Source of the DNA: Escherichia coli
GTDB lineage: Bacteria > Pseudomonadota > Gammaproteobacteria > Enterobacterales > Enterobacteriaceae
Assembly (NCBI RefSeq): GCF_050920415.1
Contig: NZ_CP169309.1
Reading direction: 5' to 3' (one strand)
DNA length: 64,000 nt
Made by a program: the position numbers and the translations under genes. Below the pieces are notes generated by a model that did no database searches, had not been told where the DNA came from, and saw only the letters and a list, made by a program, of their open reading frames with translations. Shown here piece after piece: positions 15,617 through 60,218 of this stretch. Each line of letters begins with the position of its first letter. Position 1 is the first letter of the stretch.

Positions 15617-15646
15617 GCAAAAAACCCCGGCCTTATGGACCGGGGT
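15617..15646 (-). terminator. rrnE operon terminator
   Basis: Minus-strand hairpin aaccccggtccataaggccggggtt followed by UUUUUUG, immediately 3' of the 5S gene. Confidence 0.7.
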
Positions 15647-15658
15647 TTTTCTAATTTG

Positions 15659-15778
15659 ATGCCTGGCAGTTCCCTACTCTCGCATGGGGAGACCCCACAC
15701 TACCATCGGCGCTACGGCGTTTCACTTCTGAGTTCGGCATGGGGTCAGGTGGGACCACCGCGCTAAGGCCGCCAGGCA
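15659..15778 (-). rRNA. rrfE: 5S ribosomal RNA (rrnE operon)
   Basis: 120 nt matching the E. coli 5S sequence (TGCCTGGCGGCC...GGGAACTGCCAGGCAT) on the minus strand. Confidence 0.95.
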
Positions 15779-54985: not shown

Positions 54986-55944
54986 TCTGCACTACGCAGG
55001 GATATTTCACCGCCCATCCAGGGTTTTATTATTCCATCCTGCTCAAGCAATAAAGCGCCTTGTTTGTCTATTCCGCGTGAAATGCCAAATATTTCTTTAT
55101 CACCAATGATAAGTTTCACTGGGCGATTAATAAAATTATCCAGTTTTTCCCAGCGCGACAGATAAGGTGCCAATCCTTCTTGCTCGAAGAGTTCCAGCGC
55201 CGCACGTAATTCACGTATTAGCATGGCCGCCAACGCATTACGATCGAGATTGATCCCAGCTTCCTGCAGCGTGATCCACCCCTGATTAACGATATTCTCT
55301 TCAACACGACGCATTGCCATGTTGATCCCGGCACCAATGACTATTTGCGCCGCATCGCCGGTTTTGCCAGTCAGCTCCACAAGAATACCTGCCAGCTTGC
55401 GATCCTGCAGATAGAGGTCATTCGGCCATTTAACACGAACTTTATCAGCGCCCAACTTGCGTAATACTTCCGCCATCACGATACCGATAACCAGACTTAA
55501 ACCAATCGCCGCAGCCGGGCCTTGTTCCAGACGCCAGAACATCGACAAATATAAGTTTGCGCCAAAAGGTGAAAACCATTTCCGACCTCGGCGACCACGT
55601 CCTGCCTGCTGGTATTCAGCAACGCAGGCATCACCCGATTTAAGCTCTCCGATACGATCAAGAAGGTACTGATTCGTGGAGTCAATAACTGGCAGCACGG
55701 CTACACTACCGCTATCCAGCTGACTCAATATCTGTTCAGCATTAAGTAACTGGATGGGCTCAGGCAGGCTGTATCCTTTACCCGGAACGGTAAAGACATC
55801 AACGCCCCAGTCACGCAGTGTTTGAATATGTTTATTAATGGCCGCCCGGCTCATTCCTAACGTTTCACCCAGCTGCTCACCAGAGTGAAATTCGCCATTC
55901 GCTAATAGCGTGATTAATTTTAGCGGAACGGTATTATCCTTCAT
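54979..55944 (-). CDS. birA: Biotin-protein ligase / biotin operon repressor BirA
   Basis: 321 aa [50 protein letters not shown]...; GRGRRGR biotin-binding loop. Confidence 0.96.
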
Positions 55945-56969
55945 GAAATCGTCTCCACTGCGCTAACTTCACCTGATGTACCAATAAAGCGAACTTCTGG
56001 CTCAAGCCAGACATTAAATTTTTCACCCACTTTCTGTCTTACATGATGTGCCAGGTGCACAATATCTTCGCTTTTTGCATTGCCTTCATTAATGAGAACT
56101 AACGCCTGTTGACGGTGTACCGCAGCCCCACCAATTTGTGTTCCTTTTAGCTGGCACTGATCGATAAGCCAACCAGCGGCCAGTTTTACTGAACCATCCG
56201 TCTGGGGATAATTTGGTGCTGTTGGAAATTGTGCCAGTAATGCTTTAGCCGTTTCGGCAGATACAACAGGGTTTTTGAAGAAACTACCGGCATTGCCATT
56301 CACTTTTGGATCAGGGAGTTTGGTGGTGCGCATATGACACACCGCATCAAATACTTGCTGTGGCGTTACGGTTGTAGGATCCAGACGAGTTAAGTCACCA
56401 TACGTTAGTACAGGTTGCCACTCTTTTGGCAGGCGCAGACCTACGGCTACAATGGCGAAGCGGTCCTGGTATTCATGTTTAAAAATACTGTCGCGATAGC
56501 CAAAACGGCACTCTTTGGCAGTTAAGCGCACTTGCTTGCCTGTCGCCAGTTCAACACAGTCAACATAAGCGCAAACTCGCTGTAATTCTACGCCATAAGC
56601 ACCAATATTCTGGATAGGTGATGAGCCGACACAACCAGGAATTAACGCCAGATTTTCCAGACCTGGCATACCTTCCTGCAAAGTGTATTTTACCAGGCGA
56701 TGCCAGTTTTCTCCGGCTCCTACATGTAAATACCACGCATCAGGTTCATCATGAATTTCGATACCTTTGATCCGGTTGATGATCACCGTGCCGCGATAGT
56801 CTTCCAGAAAAAGTACATTACTTCCTTCACCCAGAATAAGAACGGGTTGCCCTTCTGCGGTTGCATGCTGCCAGGCATTGAGTAGTTGTTGTTCGTCTTC
56901 GGCACATACAATGTGCTGAGCATTATGATCAATGCCAAATGTGTTCCAGGGTTTTAAGGAGTGGTTCAT
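55941..56969 (-). CDS. murB: UDP-N-acetylenolpyruvoylglucosamine reductase
   Basis: 342 aa [21 protein letters not shown]...; 4-bp overlap with the birA start. Confidence 0.96.
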
Positions 56970-57059
56970 AGCTGCTTTCCTGATGCAAAAACGAGGCTAG
57001 TTTACCGTATCTGTGGGGGGATGGCTTGTAGTTATGACGACAGGAAGAGTTTGTAGAAA

Positions 57060-57089
57060 CGCAAAAAGGCCCAGTCTTCCGACTGGGCC
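57060..57089 (-). terminator. rrnB operon terminator (single hairpin)
   Basis: Minus-strand stem ggcccagtcggaagactgggcc followed by UUUUUGCG, 14 nt after the 5S gene. Confidence 0.75.
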
Positions 57090-57103
57090 TTCTGCTTAAT
57101 TTG

Positions 57104-57223
57104 ATGCCTGGCAGTTCCCTACTCTCGCATGGGGAGACCCCACACTACCATCGGCGCTACGGCGTTTCACTTCTGAGTTCGGCATGGGGTCAGGTGGGAC
57201 CACCGCGCTAAGGCCGCCAGGCA
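57104..57223 (-). rRNA. rrfB: 5S ribosomal RNA (rrnB operon)
   Basis: 120 nt, same sequence as the rrnE 5S copy. Confidence 0.95.
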
Positions 57224-57316
57224 AATTCTGTTTCATCAGACCGCTTCTGCGTTCTGATTTAATCTGTATCAGGCTGAAAATCTTCTCTCAATCCGCCAAA
57301 ACATCTTCGGCGTTGT

Positions 57317-60218
<2,902 letters not shown>

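What the first reader, a model, noticed from the sequence alone, without database searches (positions are those of the whole stretch)
56970..57103. rrnB is followed by one compact terminator, not the tandem T1-T2 region I recall for K-12
Only 134 bp separate the 5S gene from the murB start, with a single strong hairpin (ggcccagtcggaagactgggcc plus U-run, 57060-57089). As I recall K-12 rrnB, the 5S gene is followed by two terminators (T1 stem ggctcagtcgaaagactgggcc; T2 stem ggccatcctgacggatggcc) spread over about 300 bp. The stem here resembles T1 while the flanks (caaattaagcagaa...tttttgcgtttctacaaactctt) resemble T2, as if recombination between them removed the intervening segment.
Basis: partly seen in the sequence, partly recalled or inferred. 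Interest (0 to 1): 0.3.

Follow-up and report, generated by a model that had tools for sequence, protein, structure and literature searches.

The report
Single rrnB terminator, a common allele
This E. coli strain ends its rrnB ribosomal RNA operon with one strong terminator hairpin instead of the two found in K-12, but this is the common and probably older form of the locus, so K-12 is the unusual one.

Summary
The operon lies on the minus strand. Exactly 134 bp (56970-57103) separate the 5S gene (57104-57223) from the murB start codon (56969). K-12 MG1655 has 300 bp there. The spacer holds one strong hairpin, GGCCCAGTCGGAAGACTGGGCC (57068-57089), followed by a U-run. Its stem is 20/22 identical to K-12 T1, and its flanks are identical to those of K-12 T2.

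The proposed deletion by T1xT2 recombination is not supported. The pattern T2 flank, T1-like stem, T2 flank cannot come from one crossover. About 54% of 5,426 complete E. coli genomes lack the tandem at rrnB, and about 41% carry this hairpin type in these flanks. These include O157:H7 (E), CFT073 (B2) and IAI39 (F). All four informative non-coli Escherichia species and most Enterobacteriaceae sampled have a single terminator here. The same hairpin with the same adjacent bases occurs in Citrobacter and Kosakonia.

The K-12 tandem looks derived. It contains a 168-bp T1 unit flanked by an 18-bp repeat. The K-12 rrnB and rrnA ends are 208/209 identical up to the end of T2, which is a gene-conversion signature. 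O157:H7 has the unit only at rrnD, and 27% of genomes lack it entirely.

This is an ordinary intrinsic terminator and a natural polymorphism. Interest is low.

The parts
57104..57223 (-). 5S rRNA gene of rrnB (rrfB)
   Evidence: Rfam 5S_rRNA at 57106-57221, 93.2 bits. The 120-nt boundaries come from alignment to K-12 rrfB.
56970..57103 (-). The 134-bp spacer between the 5S gene and murB. K-12 has 300 bp here.
57061..57095 (-). Extended terminator hairpin, GCAGAA-GGCCCAGUC-GGAA-GACUGGGCC-UUUUUGC
   Evidence: MFE structure, -26.8 kcal/mol, z = -5.4. In an alignment of 18 distinct homologues, 99.1% of cells are paired and 4 pairs show changes on both sides.
57068..57089 (-). Core 9-bp G+C-rich stem with a GGAA tetraloop. 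I call this the type-A hairpin. It is 20/22 identical to the K-12 rrnB T1 stem-loop.
   Evidence: The core alone folds at -18.8 kcal/mol, against -15.8 for T1 and -14.7 for T2.
57057..57067 (-). U-rich tract UUUUUGCGUUU directly 3' of the stem. This is the expected release site.
   Evidence: Read from the sequence. The tract is identical in all rrnB alleles, including K-12 T2.
56970..57031 (-). Block next to murB that is conserved across Enterobacteriaceae (...atacggtaaacta...gtttttgcatcaggaaagc...). It is unchanged between the short and long alleles and is probably the murB promoter and 5' leader. That role is inferred, not tested.
   Evidence: Column conservation over 80 species loci. The block is identical in all E. 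coli alleles. The consensus promoter scan found no site here.
55941..56969 (-). murB (UDP-N-acetylenolpyruvoylglucosamine reductase), the gene downstream in the same direction
   Evidence: ORF of 342 aa. The homologous genes are annotated murB in the matching genomes.

Best explanation
The element is the Rho-independent (intrinsic) terminator of the rrnB operon. A 9-bp G+C-rich stem with a GNRA-type GGAA loop is lengthened by A-tract/U-tract pairing. It starts 14 nt after the mature 5S 3' end and is followed by UUUUUGCGUUU. RNA polymerase should stop about 90-95 nt before the murB start codon. Having only one terminator is not a deletion of the K-12 T1-T2 region. It is the ancestral and widespread state of the rrnB-murB junction. 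Different rrn 3' ends carry interchangeable hairpin modules: type A (CAGTCGRAAGACTG core) or type B, the T2 type (CCATCC-NNNN-GGATGG). These modules sit in locus-specific flanks and are exchanged between operons by gene conversion. The K-12-type tandem arose when a 168-bp unit was copied into rrnB in the A/B1 lineage from another rrn end (rrnA/rrnD type). The unit consists of the T1 hairpin, about 120 bp with further small hairpins, and a copy of the last 13 nt of 5S. The copying probably brought the T2-type hairpin with it. Shown here: the sequences, the fold, the covariation, the allele counts, the outgroup states and the rrnA=rrnB identity. Inferred: actual termination in vivo, the direction of change, and the conversion mechanism.
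For: Terminator: strong fold with z = -5.4. Three compensatory double substitutions occur within the 9-bp core stem in other taxa: E. albertii A-U to G-C, E. whittamii C-G to U-A, and Phytobacter G-C to A-U. A fourth pair with changes on both sides lies in the A/U extension. G.U intermediates also occur. Overall 99.1% of cells are paired, against at most 65% when the partners are slid. The position right after 5S is shared by 80 species loci.

Common allele: the long form at rrnB-murB is present in 2,517 of 5,426 genomes. The type-A hairpin in rrnB flanks is present in about 2,212-2,287 genomes, and the exact 60-nt window sequence in 93. The T2-only short form accounts for about 500.

Direction of change: E. 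albertii, E. whittamii, Escherichia sp. E1V33 and strain E69 are all short, with 128+ (contig cut), 134, 132 and 132 bp. Most of the Enterobacteriaceae spacers that could be measured are 112-190 bp. The string GGCCCAGTCGGAAGACTGGGCCTTTTTGCGTT is identical in Citrobacter amalonaticus (L026) and Kosakonia oryzendophytica (L090). CFT073 (B2), IAI39 (F) and O157:H7 (E) are short type A, while K-12 (A) and IAI1 (B1) are long and identical to each other.

Gene conversion: K-12 rrnB and rrnA are 208/209 identical from the 5S end to GGCCTTTTTGC, and homology stops there. K-12 rrnD also carries the unit and rrnG lacks it. O157:H7 has the unit only at rrnD. The unit is absent from 1,452 genomes and has a median of 2 copies in the rest. 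The rrnA end of the window's own strain is also short, and rrnE inside the window has a single terminator.
Against: No transcript 3'-end data were available, so termination at this site is predicted and not measured. The pattern-based terminator scan did not flag the site. Phylogroup assignments rest on a handful of reference strains (recalled, not tested here), and no genome phylogeny was used. Outgroup Escherichia species are split between type-A and T2-type hairpins. The ancestral hairpin type is therefore uncertain, and only the single-terminator state is clear. Because rrn ends undergo gene conversion, the state of a locus can be overwritten repeatedly. Secondary loss of the unit in the window's lineage, followed by a hairpin swap, cannot be formally excluded.
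Confidence: 0.8

Rival explanations
1. The strain descends from a K-12-like T1-T2 tandem, and recombination between T1 and T2 deleted the intervening segment and left a T1/T2 hybrid terminator.
For: The stem is 20/22 identical to T1, and the flanks are identical to the T2 flanks. The tandem contains an 18-bp direct repeat (AACTGCCAGGCATCAAAT) that could mediate deletion. A clean T2-only short allele that fits such a deletion does exist in about 9% of genomes.
Against: The pattern T2-left / T1-stem / T2-right needs two exchanges, not one. The loop is GGAA, as in K-12 rrnA and rrnD T1, and not GAAA as in K-12 rrnB T1. The same arrangement is present in E. albertii, E. whittamii, Citrobacter and Kosakonia and in the B2, F and E reference strains. 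All non-coli Escherichia sampled are short.
Confidence: 0.07
2. The lineage had a single T2-type hairpin at rrnB, as in strain PSS-12. A short-tract gene conversion from a T1-type hairpin at another rrn end (e.g. rrnD T1) then replaced only the stem-loop.
For: Hairpin modules differ inside identical flanks. O157-type genomes carry a T1 hairpin with a GGAA loop at rrnD that could serve as donor. Two outgroup Escherichia species have T2-type hairpins at this site.
Against: The homology available on either side of the stem is very short, about 4-14 nt between T1 and rrnB flanks. The type-A hairpin in rrnB-type flanks is shared by distant genera and by B2, F and E strains, so retention is more parsimonious than repeated identical conversions.
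Confidence: 0.1
3. It is an assembly artefact. The tandem collapsed across the 18-bp repeat or across repeated rrn ends during assembly.
For: rrn operons are classic sites of assembly collapse. Many draft contigs break exactly here.
Against: The window is 100% identical over the 531 bases compared (56800-57330) to a complete genome, NZ_CP027579.1. The same 134-bp form is present in about 2,200 complete genomes, including the finished reference genomes CFT073 and IAI39. The hairpin sequence itself differs from both K-12 hairpins, and a collapse cannot produce that.
Confidence: 0.01

Closest known systems
E. coli K-12 rrnB T1 terminator (BioBrick B0010 and the T1 of pKK/pTrc vectors; Brosius et al. 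1981, cited from memory)
   Same: It is the same hairpin module: a 9-bp stem with a GNRA tetraloop, 20/22 nt identical (GGCyCAGTCGrAAGACTGGGCC). It starts the same distance (14 nt) after the 5S 3' end. A/U-tract pairing extends the stem in both.
   Different: The flanks differ: caaattaagcagaa / tttttgcgtttctac here, against caaataaaacgaaa / tttcgttttatctg in T1. The stem here is perfect, C-G where T1 has U.G. The loop is GGAA, against GAAA. Predicted stability in context is -26.8 against -32.6 kcal/mol. It is not followed by the 168-bp unit or by a second terminator.
E. coli K-12 rrnB T2 terminator
   Same: It occupies the same slot. The flanks are identical on both sides, apart from one SNP about 40 nt downstream, and it is the last hairpin before the murB-proximal DNA.
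   Different: The stem-loop is different: 22-nt GGCCCAGTCGGAAGACTGGGCC against 20-nt GGCCATCCTGACGGATGGCC. Here it directly follows a complete 5S gene, whereas T2 follows a 13-nt copy of the 5S 3' end.
Single-terminator rrn ends: K-12 rrnG, and rrnE (read here from the window's own copy and from CFT073; the K-12 rrnE end was not fetched)
   Same: One intrinsic terminator lies immediately after 5S, and unique DNA follows within about 60-100 bp. This shows that one hairpin is a normal way to end an E. coli rrn operon.
   Different: The hairpin sequences differ: rrnG uses the T2-type hairpin, and rrnE uses AACCCCGGUCCAUAAGGCCGGGGUU.
Concerted evolution (gene conversion) among bacterial rrn operons (e.g. 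Liao 2000; Hashimoto et al. 2003, cited from memory)
   Same: It accounts for near-identical 3'-end modules at unlinked operons, for example K-12 rrnA = rrnB at 208/209. It also accounts for the presence/absence polymorphism of the 168-bp unit.
   Different: That literature deals mainly with the rRNA genes and the internal spacers. Exchange of terminator modules downstream of 5S was not described in the papers I could search.

Membership tests
Rho-independent (intrinsic) terminator | Stable G+C-rich stem-loop in the nascent RNA | tested here: met
   A 9-bp core with 7 G-C pairs and a GGAA loop, -18.8 kcal/mol alone and -26.8 in context, z = -5.4.
Rho-independent (intrinsic) terminator | U-rich tract immediately 3' of the stem | tested here: met
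   UUUUUGCGUUU directly follows the core stem. The rule-based scan did not call the site, probably because the extended stem overlaps the U-run.
Rho-independent (intrinsic) terminator | Structure maintained by selection (compensatory changes) | tested here: met
   Four pairs show changes on both sides and 99.1% of cells are paired. Only 1 of 500 shuffles reaches the observed values. Slid controls reach at most 65% paired. Caveat: the sequences are related and the variation is modest.
Rho-independent (intrinsic) terminator | Transcripts actually end at the U-tract | not testable with these tools
   No 3'-end or RNA-seq data were available for a strain with this allele.
K-12-type rrnB T1-T2 tandem terminator region | Two successive terminator hairpins (T1 and T2) between 5S and murB | tested here: not met
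   There is only one hairpin, and the spacer is 134 bp against 300 bp.
K-12-type rrnB T1-T2 tandem terminator region | The 168-bp unit that ends in a second copy of the 5S 3' end (AACTGCCAGGCAT) | tested here: not met
   The 20-mer GGAACTGCCAGGCATCAAAT occurs in the window only at the two genuine 5S ends, rrnB and rrnE. The unit is absent from the alignment.
   The left flank is T2-type at all 4 diagnostic positions, the stem is T1-type, and the right flank is T2-type.
   All four informative non-coli Escherichia species and the B2, F and E reference strains carry a single terminator.

The most novel reading that the evidence does not exclude
The number and type of terminator modules at rrn 3' ends is a polymorphic trait shuffled by gene conversion, with 0 to 4 or more copies of the 168-bp T1 unit per chromosome. 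At rrnB it may set how much of the very heavy, antitermination-modified rRNA transcription leaks into murB-birA. Strains with one terminator (B2, E, F) and strains with two (A, B1) would then differ in basal expression of a cell-wall enzyme and of the biotin ligase/repressor.
Probability: 0.12. Interest if true: 0.35.

Novelty: already known. Interest (0 to 1): 0.12.

Why it matters
It matters little for biology. The feature is a textbook intrinsic terminator in a form carried by about 40% of sequenced E. coli. Two practical points follow. First, the rrnB T1T2 cassette used in countless vectors reflects the K-12 (A/B1) allele and not the species norm, so K-12 should not be taken as the reference state when rrn 3' ends are annotated. 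Second, the 168-bp unit is present or absent at individual rrn ends and could serve as a simple lineage marker. It also gives a clean example of concerted evolution that extends past the 5S gene. A functional consequence, altered read-through into murB-birA, is possible but untested.

Tried and rejected
1. The pattern scan for terminators and promoters over 56500-57600 returned nothing. I treat this as a limitation of the tool and not as evidence against the hairpin.

2. Rfam found no family in the spacer.

3. I aligned the K-12 168-bp unit to 5S to test whether it is a decayed second 5S gene. Only the last 13 nt match in a local alignment. The split match GAGTAGG...AACTGCCAGGCAT seen is suggestive but unproven.

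4. Literature searches for a description of rrnB terminator polymorphism found only vector and synthetic-biology uses, general rrn papers, and Brandis et al. 2019 (PMC6735719). That paper notes murB-birA-coaA as an insertion between rrnB and tufB but does not treat the terminators.

5. UMN026 (phylogroup D) is not in the collection, so D was not sampled. The '042' record found is a 4.69-Mb Swiss isolate, apparently not the EAEC 042 prototype as I recall it.

6. An assembly artefact was considered and rejected.

7. Allele counts come from BLAST coverage and identity bands, not from per-genome parsing. They are therefore approximate, to within a few percent.

Full report
OBSERVATION

The window carries rrnB on the minus strand. 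Rfam places 23S at 57317-60218 and 5S at 57106-57221. With the 120-nt boundaries of K-12 rrfB, the 5S gene is 57104-57223. The next gene in the same direction is murB, 55941-56969, 342 aa, starting [11 protein letters not shown].

In K-12 MG1655 the same interval is 300 bp (rrfB ends at 4171756 and murB starts at 4172057). The K-12 interval reads as follows:
- 5S
- caaataaaacgaaa-GGCTCAGTCGAAAGACTGGGCC-tttcgttttat (T1)
- about 120 bp ending in ...cataAACTGCCAGGCAT
- caaattaagcagaa-GGCCATCCTGACGGATGGCC-tttttgcgtttctacaaactctt (T2)

The window reads 5S, then caaattaagcagaa-GGCCCAGTCGGAAGACTGGGCC-tttttgcgtttctacaaactctt.

The RNA folds into a 9-bp G+C-rich stem with a GGAA loop, extended by GCAGAA/UUUUUGC pairing. 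The energy is -26.8 kcal/mol, z = -5.4, and no shuffle of 200 folds as well. The rule-based terminator scan missed it, most likely because the extended stem overlaps the U-run.

WHAT IT IS

It is the intrinsic terminator of rrnB. The same hairpin module, which I call type A, occurs at rrn ends in E. coli and other Enterobacteriaceae. I aligned 18 distinct versions. In that alignment 99.1% of cells in a 13-pair helix are paired and four pairs show changes on both sides. Three of those four lie in the 9-bp core stem: A-U to G-C in E. albertii, C-G to U-A in E. whittamii, and G-C to A-U in Phytobacter. The fourth lies in the A/U extension. G.U intermediates occur in O157:H7 and in K-12 T1. Sliding the partners by one to three columns drops pairing to 23-65%.

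Predicted stabilities in a 56-nt context are -26.8 kcal/mol for the window, -32.6 for K-12 T1, -22.7 for K-12 T2 and -22.0 for rrnE.

A single terminator is normal for E. coli rrn operons. rrnE, which lies in this same window (5S at 15661-15776 by Rfam), ends with one different hairpin 76 bp before yjaA. K-12 rrnG ends with a single T2-type hairpin.

HOW COMMON IS THE ALLELE

I surveyed 5,426 complete E. coli genomes.
- **Long form.** A query that needs both the inter-terminator unit and the rrnB-specific spacer plus the murB start is at least 80% covered in 2,517 genomes (46%). The remaining 2,907 or so genomes match only from the 5S-end repeat onward, which is the short form.
- **Short form, type-A hairpin.** About 2,287 genomes match at 90-95% identity. 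A 60-nt query centred on the window's terminator gives 93 + 1,240 + 879 = 2,212 genomes at 90% identity or more. The 93 genomes in the top band (99% or more) must be exact matches, because a single mismatch in 60 nt already gives 98.3%.
- **Short form, T2 hairpin.** About 500 genomes carry a pure T2 hairpin in a 132-bp spacer.

Allele sequences were read directly from representatives.
- Short, type A, 134 bp: O157:H7 (phylogroup E), CFT073 (B2), IAI39 (F) and the window's closest genome, 2013C-4282.
- Long, 300 bp, identical to each other: K-12 (A) and IAI1 (B1).
- Short, T2-only, with K-12-like flanks and MurB allele: PSS-12, a Swiss isolate named '042', and APEC O78:H4 E123.

The phylogroup labels are from memory.

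DIRECTION OF CHANGE

MurB loci from GTDB species representatives show that 5S-to-murB synteny is conserved across Enterobacteriaceae. Most of the spacers that could be measured are 112-190 bp and carry one hairpin right after 5S. Every informative non-coli Escherichia is short:
- E. albertii: contig cut at 128 bp, hairpin GGCCCGGTCGAAAGACCGGGCC.
- E. whittamii: 134 bp, hairpin GGCTCAGTCGAAAGACTGAGCC.
- Escherichia sp. E1V33: 132 bp, T2-type hairpin.
- Strain E69: 132 bp, T2-type hairpin.

The string GGCCCAGTCGGAAGACTGGGCCTTTTTGCGTT is identical in Citrobacter amalonaticus (L026) and Kosakonia oryzendophytica (L090). The window's arrangement is therefore old, and it is not a recent hybrid of the two K-12 terminators.

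ORIGIN OF THE K-12 TANDEM

The extra DNA in K-12 is a 168-bp unit. It consists of the T1 hairpin, about 120 bp with small inverted repeats, and a copy of the last 13 nt of 5S. With the CAAAT that follows, it is bounded by an 18-bp direct repeat, AACTGCCAGGCATCAAAT.

In K-12 the unit is also present at rrnA and rrnD but not at rrnG. K-12 rrnB and rrnA are identical at 208 of 209 positions from the 5S end through GGCCTTTTTGC, and homology stops abruptly there. That is the pattern expected from gene conversion between operons.

The unit is found in 3,974 genomes, with a median of two copies, and is absent from 1,452. In O157:H7 the only copy is at rrnD, next to yhdZ. In the window's own strain the rrnA end is short with a T2 hairpin.

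The simplest history has three steps:
1. A single terminator at rrnB is ancestral.
2. In the A/B1 lineage a conversion tract from a long rrn end overwrote the rrnB end up to the T2 hairpin.
3. The T2-only allele is either an intermediate or a later loss through the 18-bp repeat.

A tandem of the same design also occurs sporadically at this locus in Kluyvera (L039), Enterobacter (L049, L033) and Raoultella (L076).

One crossover between T1 and T2 gives T1-type sequence on the left and T2-type on the right. The window is T2-type, then T1-type, then T2-type. A crossover in the 18-bp repeat gives the T2-only allele, which is not the window's allele. The loop is GGAA, which is not the GAAA of K-12 rrnB T1. 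The allele is also shared by outgroups and by the B2, F and E reference strains. Collapse during assembly is excluded, because the sequence is identical in complete genomes and is found in thousands of them.

FUNCTION AND LIMITS

That RNA polymerase stops at the U-run (57057-57067) is an inference from structure, position and conservation. No 3'-end data were available.

The 62 bp next to murB (56970-57031) are unchanged in all alleles. They contain a block that is strongly conserved over 80 species. I take this block to be the murB promoter and leader, but this is untested and the consensus promoter scan found nothing there.

Whether one terminator or two changes read-through into murB-birA is unknown.

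Phylogroup statements rest on single reference strains, and phylogroup D was not sampled. The counts come from BLAST bands and are approximate.

The literature I could search contains no description of this polymorphism. Brandis et al. 2019 (PMC6735719) discuss murB-birA-coaA only as an insertion between rrnB and tufB. The classic descriptions of T1/T2 (Brosius et al. 1981; Orosz et al. 1991) are cited from memory.

VERDICT

The feature is an ordinary intrinsic terminator in the common, probably ancestral, single-hairpin form. K-12 is the derived state. Interest is low, at 0.12.

Noticed in passing
L001 358-525 (K-12 rrnB), L008 (rrnA), L010 (rrnD); absent from the window: The 168-bp segment between K-12 T1 and T2 behaves as a cassette. 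It ends in a 13-nt copy of the 5S 3' end and is flanked by an 18-bp direct repeat. It is present in 3,974 of 5,426 E. coli genomes and absent from 1,452, with 1-4 copies typical and up to 10 places per genome. O157:H7 has it only at rrnD. It also contains GAGTAGG about 76 nt upstream of AACTGCCAGGCAT, as if a 5S 3' end (GAGTAGGGAACTGCCAGGCAT) had been split by an insertion rich in inverted repeats. Raoultella (L076) has a shorter version.
   Followed up: partly
window 15619-15650 (-), downstream of the rrnE 5S gene (15659-15778): rrnE lies in the same window. It ends with a different single terminator, AAAAACCCCGGUCCAUAAGGCCGGGGUUUUUU, 76 bp before yjaA.
   Followed up: yes
window 57204-57210 and 15759-15765 (-), 5S positions about 14-16: Both 5S genes in the window read GGCGGCCTTAGCG where K-12 rrfB reads GGCGGCAGTAGCG. 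Strain E69 has CCGTAG. This is small 5S heterogeneity near the 5' end, shared by the two operons in the window.
   Followed up: no
L016 (Escherichia sp. MOD1-EC7003), 1-330: In this species representative the DNA upstream of murB looks like a transposase/IS coding sequence, and it abuts ...attacaaactcttgcc. The 5S-proximal terminator region has been replaced or interrupted by an insertion.
   Followed up: no
L019, L020, L021, L023, L059, L060 (Citrobacter and others), the spacer upstream of murB: The longer 5S-murB spacers in Citrobacter and some other genera are explained by REP-like palindromic units (gccggatgcggcg...cttatccggcctaca; taggcctgataagcgcagcgcatcaggc). They are not explained by a second terminator unit.
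   Followed up: no
window 56970-57031 (-): The last ~60 bp before murB contain a block (atacggtaaacta ... gtttttgcatcaggaaagc) that is strongly conserved across 80 Enterobacteriaceae species loci. It is probably the murB promoter and leader.
   Followed up: partly
E. coli genome collection, plasmid records: The K-12 T1-T2 unit gives 41-68 matching places on plasmids. One example is a 15.9-kb record, NZ_CP174269.1. These are presumably cloning or expression vectors that carry the rrnB T1T2 cassette and were deposited with the genomes.
   Followed up: no
window 56500-57600: The consensus terminator scan reports no site although a hairpin of -26.8 kcal/mol with a U-run is present. Terminators whose A-tract pairs with the U-tract escape that rule.
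   Followed up: yes
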